Sequence record: OQ555404.1
Source: Escherichia phage vB_EcoP_HC-25922
DNA length: 64,000 nucleotides
Strand: one strand, 5' to 3'
The notes under the pieces are model-generated. The model made no database searches. It worked only from the letters and a program-made list of their open reading frames with translations, and was not told the DNA's origin. The translations under genes were made by a program, and so were the position numbers. Below, piece by piece: positions 3,388 through 64,000 of this stretch. Position 1 is the first letter of the stretch, and each line of letters begins with the position of its first letter.

Positions 3388-3396
3388 TAATGTATA
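3388..3396 (+). promoter_or_regulatory. TAATGTATA promoter-like motif (candidate phage-sigma promoter)
   Basis: exact 9-mer 33 nt upstream of the ATG at 3430; same motif and spacing recur at 20077 and 35772. Confidence 0.45.
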
Positions 3397-54432: not shown

Positions 54433-55650
54433 CTATTTATTAAAGAATAGTTTTTCCATAATGGTTTCCCACTCTTCTGAGGGGAGGGTTGAGAACCCGT
54501 TTCCGTGAAGCCTGTTTGTCATGCAACTAATAATATTGTACATGTTGTAGCTTCGGGTGGATTCTGTTCCATTGTTCCAGTTATAACCGAAAACAATTTT
54601 ATCGAAGGAGGTTTTATCCGTAGTTACTTCTCGGATAAACTCAACCAAGAGCGATTTCTCTGTGATGACCGCACGTTCACCATCTGGCAGATTGCAATAC
54701 TGAGGAAGAAGGATTGGTAAGAACATCGAATTGTTCACTCGACAATCACGAACACCTTCACTGCGATAGATTAGGCTTGAGAAGTCTTCATCACGCAGGT
54801 GTCCTTCACCTTCAGTGTATTCACACTGTCGCCACTTGGTCTGGCGAGGCTCAATCATTGTACTACCAACGCCTACTGTATACAGAGACGCTTGGAAAAT
54901 ACATGAATCGTAATCATTCCCTGTTAAAGCAACTTGCTCGTTGCCGAACACATCCACTGAAGAGTTAATCAGTCGGCTGAATGCAAGAGAGGCTAAAGGG
55001 GACCAGCCTTTCTTATACATCTTGTTCAGCATTTCATACACAGCAGATTTTTCATCATCTGTATAGAATGTACGATTCAGCATCAGATAGAACAGAGCGC
55101 GATCAGCAGGACAACCATCAGTACAAACACCCATGAATCCTACTTCATGCCATACCAGACATGAGTCAGAATCTTTATCCATGAATGCTTCAAAGGCTTC
55201 CATTACAGCCCTGTCAGTAACATCAGGACGGTTGTTTTCTTCTGCCCATGTTTCTACATGAGAAGGAGGACGAGGGTCTCCATTCTCCACCCCTTCGCGG
55301 AAATATTGAGTGGTAATAGGCTTTTTATCACCATAACGTTTTACACCATAAGCGGGAAGGTGTGTACCAGAGTTCCAGATGTACTTAATTTCGGACATAG
55401 GCATCATGTTTTCGAGAACGTTCTCTTCAGCAGTGCCTTGACGAACCATCATATTTTCACTCCACACCTTAATGCGGATATTCCAGCCGTAGTTGCTGTC
55501 ATACGTGTTATAATAATCAGGATCACCATCTTCATCTTCATCATAATCACCACCCTGATAGTAACCTGCTTTCAGGAAACCATAACAAGGAGGCCAAACA
55601 GTTACAACGTCTTCTGATTCTTTCCAGCTTTGAAGTGTTACAGGGAACAT
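54433..55650 (-). CDS. hypothetical protein
   Basis: start set at MFPVTLQ with AAAGAGG RBS, just after the upstream stop. Confidence 0.4.
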   Translation of the reverse strand: MFPVTLQSWKESEDVVTVWPPCYGFLKAGYYQGGDYDEDEDGDPDYYNTYDSNYGWNIRIKVWSENMMVRQGTAEENVLENMMPMSEIKYIWNSGTHLPAYGVKRYGDKKPITTQYFREGVENGDPRPPSHVETWAEENNRPDVTDRAVMEAFEAFMDKDSDSCLVWHEVGFMGVCTDGCPADRALFYLMLNRTFYTDDEKSAVYEMLNKMYKKGWSPLASLAFSRLINSSVDVFGNEQVALTGNDYDSCIFQASLYTVGVGSTMIEPRQTKWRQCEYTEGEGHLRDEDFSSLIYRSEGVRDCRVNNSMFLPILLPQYCNLPDGERAVITEKSLLVEFIREVTTDKTSFDKIVFGYNWNNGTESTRSYNMYNIISCMTNRLHGNGFSTLPSEEWETIMEKLFFNK

Positions 55651-55660
55651 TTTTACCTCT

Positions 55661-56023
55661 TTACTCTGATACCAGAAGGCCCAGAGATTTGCGAATGTAG
55701 TCAATACTACGGAAGTTTCGATAGTTCTCTTGGAAGCGCATCTTTTCAAATTCAGCTTCCTGAAGTTCTAACTCTGCCGCTTTATATCCCGATAAAGCTA
55801 AACTCACCACATCCTGAGGCAAGACATTACGACGGCGAATAAGATATTTATTCGCTTTTAGTTTACCTTGTGCACGAGCCATTTTGGCCTTTGCCGCCTT
55901 GATACCATGAGAAATCCAAAGCAGTTGCTGTTTCAGATCTTCCTCATCCATACCACCTAAGTCATTTGCTACTTTATGAAGCGTAGACAGGTTCACATGG
56001 CCTTTAATGGGGCGTAGGTTCAT
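55661..56023 (-). CDS. hypothetical protein (helical, basic)
   Basis: 120 aa ORF; its ATG overlaps the stop of the small gene 56020-56187. Confidence 0.4.
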   Translation of the reverse strand: MNLRPIKGHVNLSTLHKVANDLGGMDEEDLKQQLLWISHGIKAAKAKMARAQGKLKANKYLIRRRNVLPQDVVSLALSGYKAAELELQEAEFEKMRFQENYRNFRSIDYIRKSLGLLVSE

Positions 56024-56187
56024 AACTTCTCCTGTTTGTCACATTGATTGGTTAGCCAGTTGTAAGACCCTCTGTTATTCTTGCTTAACTCGCAAGATGC
56101 AAAAGAGTACATCCTGACAAACCCCACAGTGGCTAAGCAAATAAAGATTGCTGCCAATAAGAACTTAACTTTCAACTTATTATCCAT
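56020..56187 (-). CDS. small membrane protein (55 aa, below ORF-track cutoff)
   Basis: MDNKLKVKFLLAAIFICLATVGFV...; AAGAAGAGG RBS 5 nt upstream. Confidence 0.3.
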   Translation of the reverse strand: MDNKLKVKFLLAAIFICLATVGFVRMYSFASCELSKNNRGSYNWLTNQCDKQEKL

Positions 56188-56296
56188 ACAACCTCTTCTT
56201 TGAACTTAAAAAAGGACTCTCCTAAGAGAGCCAAGCTTTAAGGCCAATTAAATAGATATCACCCAATATCTGTGGATAACCTGCTCTTAAAATATT

Positions 56297-56433
56297 CTAT
56301 CCGACGGATGTTCGAGGATTATTCCTCTCCCTAGCATCGGCCCCATACGGGAAAGATTAAATTAAGTTTAGGTTAGTTGAGCCAGAATAGCTCACATAGC
56401 CCTCTGATACTCACAAGGGCTATAGATGTTACT
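56297..56433 (-). repeat. conserved noncoding element, copy A
   Basis: shares ordered blocks (ctatc, gatgtt, tctctccctagc, tcacatagccctctgata, gatgttact) and a hairpin with copy B. Confidence 0.5.
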
Positions 56434-56677
56434 CTGCGGCTCCGTCGAATCGGAGGATTGCTGCTGGAACAGGGTATACTTCCAGATCTTCATCCAGTCG
56501 GTACAGGTGCCCTGTGCTTAAATTTACAGCTGTTACTGGCTTAGAATGACCTCCAGCCTGTATGGAAGGGACTCTGATAAAGAACTCTTCCGGATATTCA
56601 ACAGAGTGGAACACACTCCCTGAATAGAGATTCTTTATTTTGGAAGTTTGTTTAGGAGTTTTATCGGCAATTTGCAT
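56429..56677 (-). CDS. small protein, GD.F-family paralog
   Basis: 82 aa; one of six small proteins sharing an L..L.PGD[VF]F-type N-terminal motif. Confidence 0.4.
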   Translation of the reverse strand: MQIADKTPKQTSKIKNLYSGSVFHSVEYPEEFFIRVPSIQAGGHSKPVTAVNLSTGHLYRLDEDLEVYPVPAAILRFDGAAE

Positions 56678-56910
56678 TACAGACCTTTCTTAGCACGATC
56701 TTTGGCAGTTTTGCCAGTGCGGATACGATGGGAAACATTAACCAGCTCGCCACCTTCGACGATGGTCACGCTTTTGTTTTTCGCAATATCAAACACAGTT
56801 TTCTCTGTACCGCCCAGACGAATCTGTTTAGGCTCGCTGTGGGTCTGAGTTGATTTAGACTGGAACTGGAACGGCTGACGGATGGCATCAATTGCACTAG
56901 CTTTAGACAT
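56677..56910 (-). CDS. hypothetical small protein
   Basis: 77 aa ORF. Confidence 0.35.
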   Translation of the reverse strand: MSKASAIDAIRQPFQFQSKSTQTHSEPKQIRLGGTEKTVFDIAKNKSVTIVEGGELVNVSHRIRTGKTAKDRAKKGL

Positions 56911-56937
56911 ATTTTATTACCTTAAATTAAAGAGATA

Positions 56938-57351
56938 TTAAACAACGAATTGGAACGCTTCGTATCCAAACTTGTATAAGAAATCGTGTTTGAACTTTAC
57001 TACACGACCACGATCGCGGAAAGCTTTCAGGCGACTGCTGAACCCAACCATTGGCTCAGGGTCAATAGGGCTACGAATCTTCATAGCTATAGAGTGCAGC
57101 TTGAAGCGTTTACCAGTGCTACAGGCCATCATCACATACTCCATACGAGTAGTCCAGATGTTGAGCACCATGCTTGTTTTCTCCGCTGACCAACCAGTCT
57201 TGCGGGCGATTTCTTTATGGACATTAAGCTCCAAAGGAAGAGGGAATTGCTTGTTGAATGAAGCCGGATATAGCTTGACCAGAAGGTCAATGTTTTCTTT
57301 ATACGTTAAGTAAGCCAATTTCTTGCTTACGTTAGGGAATTTCCCAGACAT
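56938..57351 (-). CDS. hypothetical protein
   Basis: 137 aa ORF. Confidence 0.4.
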   Translation of the reverse strand: MSGKFPNVSKKLAYLTYKENIDLLVKLYPASFNKQFPLPLELNVHKEIARKTGWSAEKTSMVLNIWTTRMEYVMMACSTGKRFKLHSIAMKIRSPIDPEPMVGFSSRLKAFRDRGRVVKFKHDFLYKFGYEAFQFVV

Positions 57352-57549
57352 TTTTGAAGCTCCAAAACAGCGCCGAAAAGAGAGGCGTCATAGTAGCTAA
57401 AAGGAGGAGAGAAGAGGGCTTATTTACTTGCTTTTTTCTGTCCGTTAATGTACCAGATAACTGAACCGTCAGGCTGTCGTTGACCGAAGCCTTTCAAGTT
57501 AACCATTTCTTCTTCAGAGTAGGCACGTTTTCTCACTGATTTTCTCCTG

Positions 57550-57807
57550 TCAGTAGAAGGTGTGTGTAGAGTCGTCGTTCATAGATAACCAAACGAAGAA
57601 GACAATCACACAGAAAGCAATAATACCGAGAGTTGCAAGGATTATAGTGTTAGCTAATGTGATATCTAACACGCTTTGCAGATACATAAAGAACTGTACG
57701 ACACCACATACCATCAGCACAACCCCAACGACAATGAGGAGCCAATATGTGCAGAGAAGGACTGCATCTAATAGTGATACATACTTTGGATGATCTTTAT
57801 GTCTCAC
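57550..57807 (-). CDS. small membrane protein (2-3 predicted transmembrane segments)
   Basis: 85 aa, strongly hydrophobic. Confidence 0.35.
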   Translation of the reverse strand: MRHKDHPKYVSLLDAVLLCTYWLLIVVGVVLMVCGVVQFFMYLQSVLDITLANTIILATLGIIAFCVIVFFVWLSMNDDSTHTFY

Positions 57808-58063
57808 TGATCTTTTCCACTAAATCCAGAGTTGCTGATTCAAATACAACACCAACTACCATATTAGGTGCCATATTACGAACGTATCCGCTCTGCATAG
57901 ACACGGCCCGAGAGTATTCAGAACCGTTAGAACTTTTGTTTACCTTCATGTAAAGGGTTTGCTCTTTATCTTCTTTCAGAGTAAAGAAAGAGCCGGGAAG
58001 AAGCCTCTGAACAGTCAGAGGGATATCTGCAACATGAGTCTTATTGATAGTAAGAACTGTCAT
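57797..58063 (-). CDS. small protein, GD.F-family paralog
   Basis: QRLLPGSFFTL...TLYMKVN. Confidence 0.35.
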   Translation of the reverse strand: MTVLTINKTHVADIPLTVQRLLPGSFFTLKEDKEQTLYMKVNKSSNGSEYSRAVSMQSGYVRNMAPNMVVGVVFESATLDLVEKISET

Positions 58064-58066
58064 TGC

Positions 58067-58321
58067 TTATTCCTTAATAGTTGCTTCAGCTTTAATAGGA
58101 ATAACAGCAACATCTTTACGAGGTGCTGTCGCTCGACCTGTGTTAAGGCAGGCTACAAGTCTATGCTCGTCCGCACCCTTGATGCAGAGTCGAGTTGAGA
58201 ACTCAGTAGACAGCAAGATGTACAAATCATCATCTTCACTGTTAGGGTACATGAAGCAATCCCCAAGTCGTAAAGCACTGAGAGGTATTGCACTCTTACC
58301 TGCTGGTTTATTAACTTTCAT
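58067..58321 (-). CDS. small protein, GD.F-family paralog
   Basis: LSALRLGDCFMY...DLYILLS; start set at internal MKVNKP. Confidence 0.35.
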   Translation of the reverse strand: MKVNKPAGKSAIPLSALRLGDCFMYPNSEDDDLYILLSTEFSTRLCIKGADEHRLVACLNTGRATAPRKDVAVIPIKAEATIKE

Positions 58322-58661
58322 TTTACCACCTTTAATTATGGACCAAATAAAAACTATCGGGGAGTGCACTAGCTCTGGGCCACGTTGTGAACATCGGCCT
58401 ACCTTTCACAACTAATTAGCTAATACACTCTCCGATAGTTTATAAATAGGGGGAGGGGACGAATCCTCCCATATCCTATTAATTAATATTGCATGTAAGA
58501 CCTAACAATCCGATGCTGTAGTGGATAGCGTAAAACGCTTACCGGCATTAAACCCAGCCCATGAGGGGCTTATGTGATTAAAATGCTCAACATTGAGCGG
58601 TTAGTTGATAGGAGATCTGAAGTCCTATCTCAAAGGACTCTCGTAAGAATCCTTCACGATA

Positions 58662-58928
58662 TTACTTAGTAATAAAGACTGTCATCTTATTCATTACCCA
58701 GCCTATTAACATAAGTAGAGGTAAGAGGAAGATAAAGATCAGCATAAAAGGCCAAAAGAATATTACCGTCCAAATAGAATATTCATCAGGCTTACCACTC
58801 CATGAGGAATGGAAGAAGTTGTAGAGTGTATTGGTTTTGAAGCACCACTTAACTACAATGGCAGCTAACCACCAACCAATAACATAAATCAGGAGGACAT
58901 ACGCTGCTGTAACCATTGACCGTTCCAT
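58662..58928 (-). CDS. small membrane protein
   Basis: 88 aa with 3 hydrophobic segments. Confidence 0.35.
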   Translation of the reverse strand: MERSMVTAAYVLLIYVIGWWLAAIVVKWCFKTNTLYNFFHSSWSGKPDEYSIWTVIFFWPFMLIFIFLLPLLMLIGWVMNKMTVFITK

Positions 58929-59143
58929 TGATAGTTGCGAGTGACCACGTTTCCGTGGATAAGGAAGTGCTGGCGGCGAAGGATATCTTTAACGTTGTAA
59001 TAGGCAGCGTTTCCTAGATGACCTTCTTTAATAAGCCAACGAAGATTACGGATATCAACCAACAGCATTTTTACTTGCTGTTGGCATGAAGTTTGAGCCG
59101 CTGTTTCAAGTAGAGCTTTCGTATCAGAATAATGACCAGACAT
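58889..59143 (-). CDS. hypothetical small protein
   Basis: 84 aa ORF. Confidence 0.3.
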   Translation of the reverse strand: MSGHYSDTKALLETAAQTSCQQQVKMLLVDIRNLRWLIKEGHLGNAAYYNVKDILRRQHFLIHGNVVTRNYQWNGQWLQQRMSS

Positions 59144-59144
59144 A

Positions 59145-59471
59145 TCACCACTCCTTACCTGTTGTTGTCACAGAACCACCACACAGCTCACCACGGGAGA
59201 TGAAGTCATAACGTGACCAATCACCTTGGGTAGCCATATCACGATCTGCATAAGCTTTCTCGTCAACAGCACCGCCATTGGAACAAGAAGCACCAGCATA
59301 ACGCATATCAATTTCACCACTAGGAATCTTCTCCCCGCTATGCCAACGGGAAACGCATACACCCTCTACAGCTACTGCACACCACCCATCAGGACGATGC
59401 TGTACACAGCCTGTAAGAGCTACACAGGCGATAAAGATACAGGTTAAGGTAATTACACCACCCCAGCTCAT
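59145..59471 (-). CDS. putative lipoprotein, Cys-rich
   Basis: signal peptide with lipobox LTGC, then a Cys-rich soluble part. Confidence 0.4.
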   Translation of the reverse strand: MSWGGVITLTCIFIACVALTGCVQHRPDGWCAVAVEGVCVSRWHSGEKIPSGEIDMRYAGASCSNGGAVDEKAYADRDMATQGDWSRYDFISRGELCGGSVTTTGKEW

Positions 59472-59626
59472 GATCCCTCCTGAAGCGCCTTACGGCGGCT
59501 ATCTCGCCAAGCCATCCATAGGTAGGTTTTAAGTTCTTCTCTTTCTTCTTCGCTGAACAAAGGAGAAGTAAAGATATCATCGAACCACTCATTAAACTCA
59601 GGGGTCATAAACCCTCCTATTTGATT

Positions 59627-59653
59627 TGGTGGACTATCTGGAATCGAACCAGA
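59627..59653 (-). other. tRNA 3'-half-like fragment (T-arm plus acceptor 3' strand)
   Basis: minus-strand TCTGG-TTCGATT-CCAGA T-arm followed by TAGTCCACCA; no complementary 5' acceptor strand found. Confidence 0.3.
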
Positions 59654-59752
59654 AGCTCACTAAGAAAGCAATTCCCACTGTTATAAAAGCACTTGCCTCA
59701 ACAGGGATACACTAACTCTGGTGCCGTACCCATACTAGCCCTTGTTTAAAAT

Positions 59753-59780
59753 TGGTCGGGACGGAAGGATTCGAACCCTC
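59753..59780 (-). other. tRNA 3'-half-like fragment ending in CCA
   Basis: minus-strand GAGGG-TTCGAAT-CCTTC T-arm followed by CGTCCCG-A-CCA; no room for a full tRNA. Confidence 0.3.
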
Positions 59781-59804
59781 CTACGTTGATTTAAAAGCTC
59801 TTAG

Positions 59805-59883
<79 letters not shown>

Positions 59884-59906
59884 ATTAAGAGCTTTCAATA
59901 TTTTGT

Positions 59907-60116
59907 TTAACTGAAAATACGCAAGGCCACATCATGACCGATATGACCGGGAACTTTGTGCTGCTCTATTTTCAAACAGAGTTTACAAACACGAGACACA
60001 CGAGACTCTTTCGCTTCGACTGGAGTGTCTTTAGCGTGAGTGATGTGTAGGTTTTCAGTGATCACCCACTCGTGTTTACATCCAGAATCTTCGGGCTTTT
60101 TCTTACGAAAGAACAT
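59907..60116 (-). CDS. small Cys/His protein, tandem paralog 1
   Basis: CKHEW...RVCKLC; start set at internal MFFRKKK. Confidence 0.35.
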   Translation of the reverse strand: MFFRKKKPEDSGCKHEWVITENLHITHAKDTPVEAKESRVSRVCKLCLKIEQHKVPGHIGHDVALRIFS

Positions 60117-60124
60117 AACACCTC

Positions 60125-60289
60125 TTAGATCAGATCTGTTTTCTTGTGCAGACCACACACTTTACAGCGAGAGTAGATACGCAACCCTTGTCGCTCTCTG
60201 TCAGTAAGTTTATTTGTGATCGTCAGTTCATAAGTATGAAGATCTTCCCACTCATGGAAATGAAAGAAACGTTTGAACCATTTAATCAT
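60125..60289 (-). CDS. small Cys/His protein, tandem paralog 2 (54 aa, below ORF-track cutoff)
   Basis: MIKWFKRFFHFHEWEDL...RCKVCGLHKKTDLI read from the minus strand. Confidence 0.35.
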   Translation of the reverse strand: MIKWFKRFFHFHEWEDLHTYELTITNKLTDRERQGLRIYSRCKVCGLHKKTDLI

Positions 60290-60298
60290 AATGATTCC

Positions 60299-60460
60299 TT
60301 AGATTACATCACGATGACTAACATCACCACACACCTTACACTGAATAACGTAACGTGTGCCCTTGTCATTGTTCCCATCTGAATCTGTATAGACCAGAGG
60401 ACGGGTGTTAATAATCTTCCAATCATGACAATGGAAGACACGCTTTAGCCATTTAATCAT
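60299..60460 (-). CDS. small Cys/His protein, tandem paralog 3
   Basis: MIKWLKRVFHCHDWKII...QCKVCGDVSHRDVI; start set at internal MIKW. Confidence 0.35.
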   Translation of the reverse strand: MIKWLKRVFHCHDWKIINTRPLVYTDSDGNNDKGTRYVIQCKVCGDVSHRDVI

Positions 60461-60461
60461 A

Positions 60462-60719
60462 CTAAGCACACGCCGGTAATTCAATTAACTGAGGAGTACG
60501 ACAAGGGCCATCCTCATACACACCTACTAGTGTTGGCATGTAAGGCCCAGCGCACTGGTATTCATCGAACAGTTCATTGTAAGTAGGCTTCCACTTCCAA
60601 GCCCACACATAACCCATTCGATCAATGGCAATGTAACGAGTGTTCAGAGGAACCTGCATCATCACATCACCAACTGCTATTACTTTCGTAATAACTACTG
60701 CTCGGAAGTTTGTCTTCAT
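60462..60719 (-). CDS. hypothetical small protein
   Basis: 85 aa ORF. Confidence 0.35.
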   Translation of the reverse strand: MKTNFRAVVITKVIAVGDVMMQVPLNTRYIAIDRMGYVWAWKWKPTYNELFDEYQCAGPYMPTLVGVYEDGPCRTPQLIELPACA

Positions 60720-61024
60720 GACTTTGCAGCCTCCATCATTTTATTCATTTTAGCCACACCTTTACGGATAAGAGGCATAAATTCATCAGCCAGTTCAGTG
60801 GATAAAAGTTTAAGCCCGCCTGATTTAATACCGTTCACCGCCTTCTCAACTTCATCCGACAGCAATGTCATTGTTAACCACGGGGATTTTATTACCACAG
60901 TAAAGCCCGGTTCATACCGCGAGTGACTGTAGGTGAACTCTAAATGAGTAACACCGGGCATCTTAGACATTTGAGCACGGATATCTACATTAGGGTTGCA
61001 GCGAGTTGAAGATGAAATTGTCAT
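60716..61024 (-). CDS. hypothetical protein
   Basis: 102 aa ORF. Confidence 0.4.
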   Translation of the reverse strand: MTISSSTRCNPNVDIRAQMSKMPGVTHLEFTYSHSRYEPGFTVVIKSPWLTMTLLSDEVEKAVNGIKSGGLKLLSTELADEFMPLIRKGVAKMNKMMEAAKS

Positions 61025-61272
61025 GGCGCTTTAATCTCAATCTGAACGTTGACGACGAATACAGTATGGTTTGCACTGTACACTGAAGTGCCTATGATTG
61101 GCTTATCATCACTGAGGATTTCAACAGCGTGCTCAAGGTTAATCTTCAGATGAAGACGCCCTGATTCCATGAAGAAATCACCAGCACGTATCTCACCGAA
61201 CTTAGCTGGCACACCGATAGAGGGTATCAGTATGTCAGTGCGACCTTTACGGTCAAATAAACGATTGAACAT
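61021..61272 (-). CDS. small protein, GD.F-family paralog
   Basis: FGEIRAGDFFME...RLHLKIN. Confidence 0.35.
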   Translation of the reverse strand: MFNRLFDRKGRTDILIPSIGVPAKFGEIRAGDFFMESGRLHLKINLEHAVEILSDDKPIIGTSVYSANHTVFVVNVQIEIKAP

Positions 61273-61281
61273 ATCAACCCC

Positions 61282-61491
61282 TTATGTAATATCAACCTCA
61301 AACCAACAGGTAAGAGCTTTTTCATTGTTGCGTTTTGGCTCAAAGGATTTAACAACCGATAATACTCGGCGCTGTTCTCCATCAAACCAGATAGTTTCAT
61401 CTTTTTCAGGGAGTAGGTTGTGTGCAGCACAAACGATTTCACCTAGCACAACCTGTCTGCCATCTTGCTTACGAACTAAACGAATGTTCAT
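61282..61491 (-). CDS. hypothetical small protein
   Basis: start set at MNIRLVRK with AGAGAGG RBS after the terminator. Confidence 0.35.
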   Translation of the reverse strand: MNIRLVRKQDGRQVVLGEIVCAAHNLLPEKDETIWFDGEQRRVLSVVKSFEPKRNNEKALTCWFEVDIT

Positions 61492-61534
61492 AACAACCTC
61501 TCTTGTTAGTTTAAGTAAGAGTTGTCCCTTAATT

Positions 61535-61567
61535 AAAACAACAAAGGCCACCCCTAAGGGCAGCCTC
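61535..61567 (-). terminator. rho-independent terminator (minus strand)
   Basis: minus-strand GGCTGCCC-TTAG-GGGTGGCC followed by TTTGTTGTTTT. Confidence 0.5.
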
Positions 61568-61571
61568 TTAT

Positions 61572-61775
61572 TTAAGCGCAAGCACTACGCAGTTTGTTAT
61601 TCAAGAAGCGATCTTCTGCATTATACAGGAATGCATAGAACAACTCTTTTGCTACATCCCGATCGCAATTGAGACATTTAGAGATCTGTAACAACAAACC
61701 ATCACGACTATTAGGATGGTCAATTATCGCAAGACGAATAATCTCACGAATACCAATGTCATGCTCAGCCGCCAT
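61572..61775 (-). CDS. hypothetical small protein
   Basis: ORF 61572-61787 taken from its internal ATG (MAAEHD). Confidence 0.3.
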   Translation of the reverse strand: MAAEHDIGIREIIRLAIIDHPNSRDGLLLQISKCLNCDRDVAKELFYAFLYNAEDRFLNNKLRSACA

Positions 61776-61905
61776 AGAACCAATCACCCTGACGTTTACG
61801 AATGTTAGTTGTCAGACGAAGCATGGCAGACTCAATCTTCAGAGCACCATTTGCTACTGCATCCATACGTTCAGGACGGTTCATACGTTTGGTTGTCTTT
61901 TTCAT
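61765..61905 (-). CDS. small basic protein (46 aa, below ORF-track cutoff)
   Basis: MKKTTKRMNRPERMDAVANGALKIESAMLRLTTNIRKRQGDWFYGG. Confidence 0.3.
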   Translation of the reverse strand: MKKTTKRMNRPERMDAVANGALKIESAMLRLTTNIRKRQGDWFYGG

Positions 61906-62085
61906 AATGTTCTCTCTTTATTGATGGAGGCAGGATTGCCAGTTAATATAAAGGGAAGCCCTACACGTCAAGGCTTCCGCTTGTACAAACTGTCGAGAAC
62001 TCTCTACCCCTAGATTGTTCTCTATCCCAAACCGATACATACCCCTACATATCGGAATGCCATTCGAAAATTAACAGGTTTTAGT

Positions 62086-62212
62086 CTATCACCGGATGTT
62101 TGAGACAAGTCTCTCCCTAGCGGTGAGCCATATGGCGTTGAGATTATAGTTAATTGAGGAACATCCTCACATAGCCCTCTGATAAACACAAGAGCTATAA
62201 GTCGATGTTACT
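62086..62212 (-). repeat. conserved noncoding element, copy B
   Basis: second copy of the element at 56297-56433, same orientation, again abutting the stop of a GD.F-family gene. Confidence 0.5.
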
Positions 62213-62432
62213 TGTTGGTTAGTCGTGCGTTAGGTACAGGTCTGACTACAGTCGATTTACACTCAGAATCACGCTTACCTGTATAAAGGTTAACAAAATA
62301 ACTTTTGTTTTCACCATAACACGCAGTACGCATGTAGTATTGAGTTTCATTGTAGTTAAACTGGAAGACTTCACCCGGATTTAGGTCTCCGAGAGTTACA
62401 ACCTCTGGCGTACTATCAATGTCAATCTTCAT
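62208..62432 (-). CDS. small protein, GD.F-family paralog
   Basis: VTLGDLNPGEVFQF...QYYMRTA. Confidence 0.4.
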   Translation of the reverse strand: MKIDIDSTPEVVTLGDLNPGEVFQFNYNETQYYMRTACYGENKSYFVNLYTGKRDSECKSTVVRPVPNARLTNK

Positions 62433-62663
62433 TTAACCACCAATATTAGTCACTTGAACATCAAATACAGGGATAACTTCATGATGTTCCTGTAACTGGA
62501 ATAGTGTTCCCTGACGAAGACCAACCACACGATGCATATCATTCAGGCAGGTGTCTGTCTTTAGATAGAGGTGTTCAGAGTTAGTTGGTAGACGGAATAC
62601 GTCACCCGGACGTAGATCGCTGAGCTTTTTAGTAACAACTAAAGATGGGAGATTAATTTTCAT
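62433..62663 (-). CDS. small protein, GD.F-family paralog
   Basis: KLSDLRPGDVFRL...HLYLKTD. Confidence 0.4.
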   Translation of the reverse strand: MKINLPSLVVTKKLSDLRPGDVFRLPTNSEHLYLKTDTCLNDMHRVVGLRQGTLFQLQEHHEVIPVFDVQVTNIGG

Positions 62664-62854
62664 TTGATTAACACCAAATCAGTACGACGTTCGAAGGAAG
62701 GGGAGGATTCACCATTCCACTGAACAAGATAACAGAGAACACCATCAATCGTTGTTCTCCGACGAATAACACCTGTAACAGTTCCACCAACAAGGCGAAC
62801 GGTGTCGCCAACGGTAAATTTAACCTTTGAGCGCATCTCCCGTTTCCTCATTCT
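62660..62854 (-). CDS. hypothetical small protein
   Basis: C-terminal part of ORF 62660-62989 from an internal Met (KFTVGDTVRLVGG...). Confidence 0.3.
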   Translation of the reverse strand, partial: RMRKREMRSKVKFTVGDTVRLVGGTVTGVIRRRTTIDGVLCYLVQWNGESSPSFERRTDLVLIK

Positions 62855-63125
62855 GGCGTTTAATTTCTTCAGTGAGTTGCTTATTAAGATCTTGAATACG
62901 TTTAATCTCCCAACCCAAAGAAGCCAAACGATCGTTACGTGCTTCGATTTGTTCCTGCATTTTAAGTAATTTGGAACGAACATCAGCATTAAAAACTTCT
63001 TCTTGCTTAAGAAGGAACTCGTAACGACGCTTCCAGCTTGCTGATTTGTTTCTTAAAATAATAAATCCTAGAGTAGAAACAGTTACAGTGAGTACGAAAA
63101 GGAACTTATAAACCTCTAAAGACAT
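62820..63125 (-). CDS. membrane-anchored coiled-coil protein
   Basis: N-terminal transmembrane segment FLFVLTVTVSTLGFIIL then helical region. Confidence 0.4.
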   Translation of the reverse strand: MSLEVYKFLFVLTVTVSTLGFIILRNKSASWKRRYEFLLKQEEVFNADVRSKLLKMQEQIEARNDRLASLGWEIKRIQDLNKQLTEEIKRQNEETGDALKG

Positions 63126-63326
63126 ATCTTTATCCTCTTAAAGTAAGATATTATAAGAAATATTATTTAGAATTTATTATTTCTAAACTTAATTCCTATC
63201 AATAATTTTCAGAGGTCTATATACAGTCATTACCTCTGGTCCCAAATCACTTCCACTTTTTACAGAGAAAATCATAAGTGTGTGATTTATAAGGAAATTT
63301 AGTTTGTCAATATTGGCACTTATGAA

Positions 63327-63713
63327 TCAGTCACGGGAGCTATTATTGAACACTAAATCACCACAATACATCGGATTGGTATACCACTTTGGCACCCCTT
63401 CGCTCTTACTCTGAAAGTATGTACCGCTGTACAAAGGCACATAACCTTTCTTCAGTGCACGCCTTGCAAGCCGCTCGCTCTCTCTGATTGATTTCTTTAT
63501 CAGAGGGTTATCATCACGAATTAGCTTTACATAACGCTTAAAAGGTTTCTCCTTCTTTAATAGGACGGGTATCCACTCGAACTGGTTTCGTTGATTTATA
63601 ACCTGCTCGGCAGTCAGTTTTCGTTGTGACATTCTGTTTATTACGGTATCCGCTACTAATGCTTTGCAAGCGGTTGGCTGATTCCCTGCCTCATAATAAA
63701 TAGTCAATGTCAA
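63327..63713 (-). CDS. SleB-like cell wall hydrolase domain protein
   Basis: IYYEAG.QP..CKALVADTVINR...QFEW and C-terminal YF....P.WYTNP...GDLVF parallel SleB-type hydrolase motifs; start is non-ATG (TTG) and uncertain. Confidence 0.45.
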   Translation of the reverse strand: MTLTIYYEAGNQPTACKALVADTVINRMSQRKLTAEQVINQRNQFEWIPVLLKKEKPFKRYVKLIRDDNPLIKKSIRESERLARRALKKGYVPLYSGTYFQSKSEGVPKWYTNPMYCGDLVFNNSSRD

Positions 63714-63763
63714 AAGTAGCTGGGCTGTCGTTATCAGAACTTACTACCCCCTTGTTTTACGGG

Positions 63764-63791
63764 CATAAAAAAGCCCCATCCGAAGACGGGG
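63764..63791 (-). terminator. rho-independent terminator (minus strand)
   Basis: minus-strand CCCCGTC-TTCG-GATGGGG followed by CTTTTTTAT. Confidence 0.6.
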
Positions 63792-63845
63792 CGGCCTGAA
63801 AAGTGAACATGACTTCACTCATTTAAGAATCCTCGTAAAGACTCT

Positions 63846-63870
63846 TAAAAAAGAGGCCTCGTTAAAGGCC
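63846..63870 (-). terminator. rho-independent terminator (minus strand)
   Basis: minus-strand GGCCT-TTAACG-AGGCC followed by TCTTTTTT. Confidence 0.5.
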
Positions 63871-63950
63871 CGGTCAAATGACCATCCAATAGGGATTGAA
63901 CCATGCCAATGATTCACAAAGGGAGTTCCCTTTAGGCATCACTAGCTACG

Positions 63951-63972
63951 AAAAAAGCCGCACAAAGGCGGC
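63951..63972 (-). terminator. rho-independent terminator (minus strand)
   Basis: minus-strand GCCGC-CTTTGT-GCGGC followed by TTTTTT. Confidence 0.55.
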
Positions 63973-64000
63973 AGACAAAGACGCTCAAGAAGAGCGTCAT

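What the first reader, a model, noticed from the sequence alone, without database searches (positions are those of the whole stretch)
56429..62663. Six-member family of small (about 75-90 aa) proteins with a shared N-terminal GD.F-type motif
Seen in sequence: 56429-56677, 57797-58063, 58067-58321, 61021-61272, 62208-62432 and 62433-62663 share an N-terminal pattern (hydrophobic-x-x-L-x-[PA]G[DES][VCF]F) followed about 12-15 residues later by a LY/HL-hydrophobic stretch and a further Gly. Inference: repeated duplication of one small domain in a single phage suggests diversification under selection, for example host-takeover or anti-defense factors.
Basis: partly seen in the sequence, partly recalled or inferred. 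Interest (0 to 1): 0.5.

Follow-up and report, generated by a model that had tools for sequence, protein, structure and literature searches.

The report
Phage early small beta-barrel protein family
Six small genes in the early region of this phiEco32-like E. coli phage really are diverged copies of one ~75-residue SH3-like beta-barrel protein; the family is widespread in phages, has no described function, and its members are credible but untested candidates for proteins that bind host factors.

Summary
The window is a Suseptimavirus-type (phiEco32-like, Gordonclarkvirinae) coliphage. All six ORFs lie on the minus strand.

- **Membership:** five ORFs (p1, p2, p3, p5, p6) recover each other in leave-one-out HMM tests (E 1e-4 to 3e-14, 0 of 1000 shuffles). 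The sixth, p4 (61021-61272), is a divergent member seen only by profile-profile comparison (hhalign 94.5%, score 37.7 against a shuffle maximum of 19.1).
- **Real genes:** all six evolve under purifying selection (dN/dS 0.06-0.26).
- **Distribution:** the family has no Pfam or NCBIfam model. It is split over about nine PHROGs of unknown function, has 464 cluster representatives in an exhaustive search, and includes N4 gp21. Related phages carry 5-9 copies. Unrelated viral contigs also carry tandem copies and fused two-domain forms.
- **Conservation:** it sits mainly on hydrophobic strand positions and two glycine turns, plus a few polar sites. The strand 2-3 loop varies from 6 to 33 residues. 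Net charge is about zero.

Function is untested. My best inference is a diversified protein-binding scaffold made early in infection, for host takeover or counter-defence.

The parts
56429..56677 (-). p1, 82 aa family member. It is the last gene of the p3-p2-...-p1 gene string.
   Evidence: Leave-one-out HMM E 5.5e-6, 0/1000 shuffles. phrog_6570 E 6e-15 with cross-hits to 7431, 7832, 8365 and 12612. dN/dS 0.23.
57797..58063 (-). p2, 88 aa family member. It forms a tandem pair with p3, separated by a 3-nt gap.
   Evidence: Leave-one-out HMM E 2e-6, 0/1000 shuffles. phrog_12612 E 3e-29 with cross-hits to 6570 and 7431. dN/dS 0.19.
58067..58321 (-). p3, 84 aa family member with a long insertion in the strand 2-3 loop.
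   Evidence: Leave-one-out HMM E 1e-4, 0/1000 shuffles. phrog_7832 E 2e-21. dN/dS 0.06. The ATG at 58321 matches the annotated start in relatives.
61021..61272 (-). p4, 83 aa, probable divergent member. It lacks the N-L-x-T-G turn and has a roughly 20-residue N-terminal extension.
   Evidence: HMM E only 0.14-0.79. hhalign of the family profile against the p4-ortholog profile gives 94.5%, score 37.7, against a shuffle maximum of 19.1. Its own PHROG is 22099. dN/dS 0.12. The AF2 model is unusable, pLDDT 40.
62208..62432 (-). p5, 74 aa family member. It abuts p6 directly and is absent from several close relatives.
   Evidence: Leave-one-out HMM E 3e-8. phrog_9955 E 1e-19 with cross-hits. Present in 5 of the 10 phages that carry orthologs of p1-p4 and p6. 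dN/dS 0.26.
62433..62663 (-). p6, 76 aa family member, the closest to the family consensus.
   Evidence: Leave-one-out HMM E 3e-14. phrog_16423 E 4e-26 with cross-hits. AF2 model pLDDT 82.8 with five beta strands. dN/dS 0.23.
56215..56232 (-). Terminator-like hairpin plus T-run about 200 nt downstream of p1, the likely end of the transcription unit that carries p3, p2 and p1.
   Evidence: Consensus scan. A terminator is annotated at the equivalent place in phage SU7. This is a pattern match only, not shown experimentally.

Best explanation
The six genes encode diverged paralogs of one stand-alone domain of about 75 residues, an SH3-like small beta-barrel. The family is phage-specific and widespread.

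Where and when they are made: in phiEco32-like phages the genes sit in the leftward gene block that, in phiEco32, host RNA polymerase transcribes early. They would therefore be produced in the first minutes of infection.

How I infer they work: the fold is held by hydrophobic residues on the strands and by two glycine turns (G-D-x-F and N-L-x-T-G). The positions between these, and especially the loop between strands 2 and 3, are free to vary. Each paralog would then act as a small protein-binding module with its own target, most likely a host protein or a host defence component that it blocks or redirects. Tandem neighbours (p5-p6, p2-p3) may work as pairs, since single-chain two-domain versions exist elsewhere.

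Shown here: homology, purifying selection, fold class, distribution, variable copy number, and genomic position. Inferred: early expression in this particular phage, protein binding, and the host-takeover or counter-defence role.
For: - **Homology:**
- **Real genes:** dN/dS 0.06-0.26.
- **Phage-wide family:** 464 representatives, mostly 70-90 aa. N4 gp21 matches at E 1e-17. BFVD hits are all uncharacterised phage proteins.
- **Expansion:** 5-9 copies in 12 Gordonclarkvirinae. An unrelated viral contig has 4 genes carrying 5 domains within 3 kb, and others have tandem pairs. 12 of 146 representatives are 130-170 aa; every one of this size that was checked has two matched domains.
- **Scaffold versus variable parts:** high-information columns are mostly hydrophobic strand positions and G20/G52, plus a few polar sites. 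The strand 2-3 loop is 6-33 residues long.
- **Charge:** pI 5.9-7.7 and net charge about 0, which argues against unspecific nucleic-acid binding.
- **Position:** syntenic with phiEco32 genes 91-116, a block reported as early-expressed, most variable and probably used for host takeover (PMC8948821). No exact gp36-type promoter consensus lies right of 35.8 kb.
- **Divergence:** family members share at most 33% identity with phiEco32 where neighbouring genes share 41-92%.
- **Phage group:** Gordonclarkvirinae are reported as highly resistant to the defence systems tested (PMC11990801).
Against: - No member of the family has any experimental function, interaction partner or solved structure.
- Early expression is transferred from phiEco32 by synteny. 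The sigma-70 promoter scan found fewer sites than in shuffled sequence (10 against 17.2), so it gives no support.
- Gene-wide dN/dS is purifying, so an arms race is not demonstrated.
- The SH3-like fold is equally common in RNA- and DNA-binding proteins.
Reading the conserved positions as the fold's core is an inference from the residue types.
- The link to the defence resistance of these phages is circumstantial.
Confidence: 0.5

Rival explanations
1. [quoted passage not shown]
For: - The top structural neighbours include ribosomal protein L2, EF-P/eIF5A and Spt5 KOW domains.
- T4 has an analogous set of paralogous early proteins with the same structural neighbours (FeoA, IdeR), and a GoF mutant stabilises an mRNA (PMC12152347).
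- A gene with a near-threshold ProQ/FinO match (E 1.3e-5, 25.5 bits against a cut-off of 27) lies between p2 and p1 on the same strand.
Against: - Net charge is about 0 and pI 5.9-7.7.
- Apart from K/R35 there is no conserved basic or aromatic position beyond the hydrophobic and aromatic strand residues counted as scaffold.
- There is no Pfam LSM, KOW or S1 match even at E up to 10.
- No sequence relation to the T4 proteins was found (hhalign at most 1%).
- In the cited paper, wild-type GoF and MotB.1 had no RNA effect.
Confidence: 0.2
2. They act on the phage's own processes, for example as small chaperones, adaptors or regulators of phage replication or of the neighbouring amidoligase and glutamine-amidotransferase module, rather than on host targets.
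For: - Orthologs are stably retained and under purifying selection.
- p1-p4 and p6 are present in all ten close relatives that were compared.
- The genes lie directly upstream, in transcription order, of the conserved homologs of phiEco32 genes 87-89 and the enzyme genes that follow.
Against: - The family occurs in unrelated phages with quite different gene sets (N4, and 122-183 kb contigs) and has no constant neighbour.
- Copy number and identity of the members change between genera while the putative partner genes stay.
Confidence: 0.15
3. The shared motif is a chance or compositional resemblance among unrelated short ORFs.
For: The proteins are short, pairwise identity is 21-36%, and some pairs give no significant BLAST hit. 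By HMM alone p4 is not significant.
Against: - Leave-one-out HMMs with shuffle controls.
- Cross-matching independent PHROG profiles.
- 464 database relatives of the same length and pattern.
- Column-shuffle and neighbouring-ORF controls for p4.
- Purifying selection.
- A confident common fold.
Confidence: 0.02

Closest known systems
PHROG families 16423, 9955, 6570, 7832, 12612, 7431, 8365, 10911 and 34455 (all 'unknown function'), including phiEco32 gp95-98, 104, 109, 113-115 and N4 gp21
   Same: Direct sequence homologs: the same length, the same G-D-x-F / Y-M-K / N-L-x-T-G / V-x-P-V pattern, and the same genomic setting among small phage genes.
   Different: Nothing differs in kind; these are the same family. 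The databases split it into many unlinked clusters, and none carries a name, domain model or function.
[quoted passage not shown]
   Same: Several paralogs per phage, early expression, a five-stranded bent antiparallel barrel, closest solved structures FeoA and DtxR/IdeR-type SH3-like domains, non-essential in the laboratory, function unknown (compare).
   Different: No detectable sequence relationship (hhalign at most 1%, HMM E above 0.1). The T4 proteins are 119-141 aa, with a barrel followed by a linker and a C-terminal domain. The proteins here are the bare barrel.
Generic SH3-like small beta-barrels (FeoA, DtxR/IdeR C-terminal domain, KOW domains of EF-P and Spt5, ribosomal protein L2 C-terminal domain, Tudor, CarD/TRCF RNA-polymerase-interacting domain, VapX antitoxin, HspQ)
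   Different: Sequence identity is 2-20%. No Pfam match to any of these families. Foldseek finds no PDB hit at E up to 0.001. The similarity is at fold level only and does not transfer a function.
phiEco32 gp79, the one small non-structural protein of these phages with a known mechanism (PMC12276001)
   Same: A small protein (83 codons in the phiEco32 record) encoded in the same leftward gene block of the same phage group. It binds host RNA polymerase, which shows that small proteins from this block do act on host machinery.
   Different: gp79 is described through alpha-helix 1 and a hydrophobic groove, with no barrel mentioned. It is encoded elsewhere and is not a member of this family.

Membership tests
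The phage small-barrel family itself (PHROGs 16423, 9955, 6570, 7832, 12612 and relatives) | A significant profile match over the whole ~75-residue domain | tested here: met
   p1, p2, p3, p5 and p6: PHROG E 6e-15 to 3e-29 with mutual cross-hits, and leave-one-out E 1e-4 to 3e-14. p4: only by profile-profile comparison (94.5%, controls); its own PHROG, 22099, does not cross-match.
SH3-like small beta-barrel fold | Five antiparallel strands forming a closed or bent barrel of about 60-70 residues | tested here: met
T4 GoF / MotB.1 / Frd.2 LSm-like family | Sequence-profile relationship of the N-terminal barrel | tested here: not met
   hhalign of the 100-sequence family profile against each T4 protein gives probability 0.2-1.0%; HMM E is 0.27 or higher.
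T4 GoF / MotB.1 / Frd.2 LSm-like family | Two-part architecture: barrel, flexible linker, C-terminal domain | tested here: not met
   The window proteins are 74-88 aa and the barrel fills them. The T4 proteins are 119-141 aa.
Hfq / Sm (LSm) proteins | A match to the LSM domain model | tested here: not met
   No Pfam hit at E up to 10 for any of the six, nor at E up to 0.01 for 100 relatives. The p6 model has no N-terminal helix before the strands other than a 3-residue turn.
FeoA / DtxR C-terminal SH3-like domain | A match to the Pfam FeoA model | tested here: not met
KOW domain | The KOW motif as captured by the Pfam KOW model | tested here: not met
Known anti-defence or host-takeover proteins | Demonstrated binding to, or inhibition of, a host or defence protein | not testable with these tools
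   No experimental data were found for any member (literature searches). This needs pull-downs or genetic tests.

The most novel reading that the evidence does not exclude
The family is a phage 'binder library'. One stable SH3-like scaffold carries a hypervariable strand 2-3 loop and variable surface. It is kept in 5-9 copies per genome, partly as heterodimerising tandem pairs. Each copy neutralises a different host defence or housekeeping protein. This would account for part of the unusually broad defence resistance reported for Gordonclarkvirinae, and would define a new, very widespread class of anti-defence or takeover proteins that also includes N4 gp21.
Probability: 0.12. Interest if true: 0.75.

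Novelty: new variant of a known kind. Interest (0 to 1): 0.42.

Why it matters
Most early genes of lytic phages are still unexplained. Here about one in six small genes of the 56-63 kb early block belongs to a single family, one that recurs in several copies in every relative examined and also in N4 and other unrelated phages.

Merging about nine unlinked PHROG clusters into one domain family, with a confident fold and a clear split between scaffold and variable parts, gives a compact set of testable candidates. BASEL phages Bas86-88 carry the same genes and grow on E. coli K-12 with restored O-antigen. That makes it practical to ask what these phages do to the host in the first minutes, and why they resist so many defence systems.

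If the proteins prove to be ordinary accessory genes with no phenotype, the value is limited to better annotation.

Tried and rejected
- **phiEco32 gp79** (RNA polymerase inhibitor) as a possible member: rejected. It is described through a helix and a hydrophobic groove, and it is encoded elsewhere.
- **T4 GoF, MotB.1, Frd.2** as homologs: no sequence signal.
- **Named families:** Pfam, NCBIfam and PDB sequence searches gave nothing significant.
- **Fold searches:** Foldseek against PDB gave no hit at E up to 0.001. The afdb50 library was not available.
- **p4 structure:** the prediction failed (pLDDT 40), so p4 could not be confirmed by fold. An HMM built from the subgroup of members that lack the T-G turn did not rescue p4 either (E 0.79).
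- **Wider loci:** tblastn of one distant member against the phage collection found a single hit, which was uninformative.
- **Promoters:** the sigma-70 scan found fewer sites than in shuffled sequence, so it says nothing about promoters.
- **Domain fusions:** only one informative fusion turned up, to a KTSC domain that is itself of unknown function.
- **Long hits:** the multi-repeat proteins in the exhaustive search (P0042, P0043, P0180) are bacterial surface or SH3b-type repeat proteins that match short stretches. I did not count them as family members.
Full report
**Source and setting.** A 7-kb query spanning the finding (window 56000-63000) is 97% identical to Escherichia phages IME267 and vB_EcoP-101114UKE3, and 91-94% identical to SU7, ECBP2, EK010 and the BASEL phages Bas86-88. 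These are Gordonclarkvirinae, phiEco32-like podoviruses with prolate heads, and the closest classified records are Suseptimavirus. Most predicted genes between about 24 and 64 kb are on the minus strand.

**Is the family real?** The six translations are p1 56429-56677 (82 aa), p2 57797-58063 (88), p3 58067-58321 (84), p4 61021-61272 (83), p5 62208-62432 (74) and p6 62433-62663 (76).
- Pairwise BLAST is significant for only some pairs: p5-p6 6e-8, p3-p6 3e-6, p1-p6 1e-5, p4-p6 6e-4.
- I therefore ran leave-one-out profile tests. An HMM built from five proteins was searched against all 755 stop-to-stop ORFs of the window. The left-out protein was always the best non-training hit, at E 3e-14 (p6), 3e-8 (p5), 2e-6 (p2), 5.5e-6 (p1) and 1e-4 (p3). 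None of 1000 shuffles of the left-out protein reached its score.
- Independent PHROG profiles give the same picture: the five proteins match their own PHROG and cross-match each other's (6570, 7431, 7832, 9955, 16423, 12612).
- No other ORF in the window matches.

**The sixth member, p4.** HMMs give only E 0.14-0.79, although p4 is the top non-member in two of the three searches. Its PHROG (22099) does not cross-match.
- A profile of p4 and its four orthologs, compared with a 100-sequence family profile, gives hhalign probability 94.5% and E 8e-8 over 56 columns, nearly the whole domain.
- As a control I shuffled the columns of the p4 alignment 300 times. The mean score was 9.8, sd 2.1, maximum 19.1, against 37.7 for the real alignment. 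The reversed alignment scored 9.1.
- Twenty other small minus-strand ORFs of the same region score 6.6-14.9, with probability at most 3%.
- p4 keeps the G-D-F-F and L-x-L-K blocks and the C-terminal V-x-V strand. It lacks the N-L-x-T-G turn and has an N-terminal extension.
- Its structure prediction failed (pLDDT 40).
- I count p4 as a probable divergent member.

**Are they genes?** I collected the same region from eleven other Gordonclarkvirinae, giving twelve phages with the window. Ten of the twelve carry orthologs of the window's paralogs. Pairwise Nei-Gojobori dN/dS is 0.06 (p3), 0.12 (p4), 0.19 (p2), 0.23 (p1, p6) and 0.26 (p5), with median dS 0.2-1.0. All six are under purifying selection, so they are functional coding genes. 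This gene-wide measure gives no sign of positive selection.

**How big is the family?**
- The word-indexed search found only close relatives (39 hits).
- The exhaustive HMMER search of 1.84 billion cluster representatives found 464 proteins at E up to 1e-3.
- Of the 146 listed representatives first returned by that search, 126 are 100 aa or shorter and 12 are 130-170 aa; every one of that size I checked has two matched domains. One is fused to a KTSC domain, itself of unknown function.
- The few long multi-repeat hits are bacterial surface or SH3b-type repeat proteins that match short stretches. I do not count them.
- None of 100 members has a Pfam match at E up to 0.01, beyond two stray single hits. 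The six have no NCBIfam match.
- Members fall into about nine PHROGs, all 'unknown function'.
- N4 gp21 is a clear member (E 1e-17), as the structure search had suggested.
- No source gives any member a name other than 'hypothetical' or 'uncharacterized'.

**Copy number and arrangement.** In the twelve Gordonclarkvirinae the region holds 5 to 9 members:
- 5 copies: SU7, UKE3, Bas87 and EK010.
- 6 copies: the window, NC-B and TH43.
- 7 copies: ECBP2 and PAS59.
- 8 copies: TH34 and CHD5UKE1.
- 9 copies: phiEco32 (gp95, 96, 97, 98, 104, 109, 113, 114, 115).

They cluster at two hot spots. One corresponds to p2-p3 and holds three or four copies in tandem in Kuravirus. The other corresponds to p5-p6 and holds up to three. 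There are also singletons.
- p5 is present in only five of the ten relatives that carry the other window orthologs. TH34, ECBP2 and PAS59 have an extra 77-79 aa member next to p6.
- Between the window and phiEco32 the best family matches share 32-33% identity, while neighbouring genes share 41-92%.
- The window's paralogs share only 21-36% identity with each other. The copies are therefore old. The pattern is gain, loss and replacement, not recent duplication.
- The habit is not confined to this group. A 183-kb contig has a tandem pair, and a further contig (a 2.8-kb fragment; the same protein also occurs on a 122-kb contig) has a pair with one copy cut by the contig end. An unrelated metagenomic viral contig has four genes carrying five domains within 3 kb.

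**Structure.** AlphaFold2 on p6 with a 29-sequence alignment gives pLDDT 82.8 and pTM 0.67, with five strands at 22-25, 28-40, 43-48, 54-58 and 62-66. BFVD's independent model of the identical 76-residue protein superposes at TM 0.96.
- Foldseek against the PDB finds nothing at E up to 0.001.
- Profile searches of PDB sequences find nothing significant.
- So the fold class is clear, but no solved relative can lend a function.

**Anatomy of conservation.** Across 100 members the high-information columns are as follows:
- the initiator M-K-I;
- hydrophobic positions on the strands (L17, V22, F23, Y33, M/I34, V47, L49, V63, V66);
- two glycines in turns (G20, G52);
- a few polar sites (D/E21, K/R35, N48, T51, D/N60, P65).

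The loop between strands 2 and 3 ranges from 6 to 33 residues; p3 has a long insertion there. This looks like a conserved scaffold with a variable surface. The six proteins have pI 5.9-7.7 and net charge between -2.2 and +0.6.

**Expression class.** The region is syntenic with phiEco32 genes 91-116, which lie just before the homologs of gp89-87 in transcription order.
- In phiEco32 the rightmost leftward-transcribed block was shown by macroarray and primer extension to be the early class. It is described as the most variable part of the genome, with genes of unknown function that probably serve host takeover (PMC8948821).
- The phage sigma factor gp36 recognises tAATGTAtA. Exact matches in the window are at 3388, 20077, 29198, 29269 and 35772, with none in 56-64 kb.
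- The generic sigma-70 scan found fewer sites than in shuffles and is uninformative. Terminator-like hairpins are enriched (14 against 6.1 expected), including one about 200 nt downstream of p1, at a place where SU7 has an annotated terminator.
- Early expression in this phage is thus an inference from synteny.

**Mechanism.** I consider a protein-binding role most likely: a stable SH3-like scaffold, made early, with each paralog presenting a different surface to a different target. The reasons are:
- the scaffold-only conservation;
- the hypervariable loop;
- the near-neutral charge;
- the accessory, fast-turnover behaviour;
- the position in the takeover block;
- the precedent that small proteins of this block act on host machinery, as gp79 does on RNA polymerase (PMC12276001). 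gp79 itself is described in helical terms and is unrelated.

Fused two-domain homologs suggest that adjacent paralogs may pair. Whether the targets are housekeeping proteins or defence systems cannot be decided here. The reported high resistance of Gordonclarkvirinae to tested defence systems is only circumstantial (PMC11990801).

The main rival is RNA binding.
- For it: the fold neighbours include L2, EF-P and KOW domains. T4 has an analogous set of early paralogs (GoF, MotB.1, Frd.2) with the same structural neighbours and a mutant that stabilises an mRNA (PMC12152347). A near-threshold ProQ/FinO-like gene sits between p2 and p1 on the same strand.
- Against it: the neutral charge, the lack of conserved basic positions, the absence of any LSM or KOW model match, and no sequence link to the T4 proteins.

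**Comparison and novelty.** The family is already present in databases as unlinked clusters of unknown function, so the proteins themselves are not new. What this analysis adds:
- their unification into one domain family, including p4-type proteins and N4 gp21;
- a fold assignment;
- the multi-copy tandem habit across unrelated phages;
- evidence of purifying selection combined with rapid turnover.

The closest described analogue is the T4 LSm-like family. This family differs from it in sequence and in architecture, being a bare barrel rather than a barrel plus a C-terminal domain. I rate it a new variant of a known kind, of moderate interest, and a well-defined target set for experiments in the BASEL Gordonclarkvirinae phages.

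Noticed in passing
window 56938-57351 (-): A 137-aa protein encoded between p2 and p1 on the same strand has a near-threshold match to the ProQ/FinO RNA-chaperone family (E 1.3e-5, 25.5 bits against a cut-off of 27). A phage-encoded ProQ/FinO-like protein in the early block would be worth a closer look.
   Followed up: no
window 59907-60116, 60125-60289, 60299-60460 (-): Three adjacent small ORFs (69, 54 and 53 aa). The last two clearly resemble each other (MIKW[FL]KR.FH.H.W ... CKVCG), and the first shares a C-x-H-x-W and C-K-L-C pattern. They look like a second small tandem paralog family, possibly zinc-ribbon-like. No Pfam match.
   Followed up: partly
window 59805-59883 (-), and 59610-59800: Rfam calls a tRNA here (36.4 bits, gathering score 29), but ARAGORN calls none. 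Its sequence differs from the tRNA-Arg that relatives carry at this position, and it is 79 nt long. Downstream there are further pieces resembling tRNA 3' halves (GGTTCGA.TCC...CCA).
   Followed up: partly
window 60716-61024 (-): The 102-aa protein directly downstream of p4 belongs to Pfam DUF7247 (E 1.8e-14). No separate gene of this size is annotated at the corresponding place in SU7.
   Followed up: no
window 62660-62989 (-): The ORF just upstream of p6 is 109 codons long here, but relatives annotate only its last 58 codons (177 nt). That part (KVKFTVGDTVRLVGG...) looks like another small barrel or KOW-like motif, but it has no Pfam or NCBIfam match and does not match the family profile. 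In TH34, ECBP2 and PAS59 an extra family member lies between it and p6.
   Followed up: partly
window 62820-63125 (-): Several relatives annotate the ortholog of this 101-aa protein as 'DNA helicase'. Its size, and its N-terminal hydrophobic stretch followed by a charged stretch that looks coiled-coil-like, make that label very doubtful. The only Pfam match is a weak DUF4446 hit.
   Followed up: no
window 3388, 20077, 29198, 29269, 35772: Exact copies of the phiEco32 gp36 sigma-factor promoter consensus TAATGTATA. They probably mark the middle and late promoters of this phage, though the total number of matches with one mismatch is not above chance.
   Followed up: no
window 55500-64000, minus strand: Terminator-like hairpins are about twice as frequent as in shuffled sequence (14 against 6.1, sd 2.4). 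Eleven of them are on the coding strand, and several lie at 63.8-64.0 kb.
   Followed up: no
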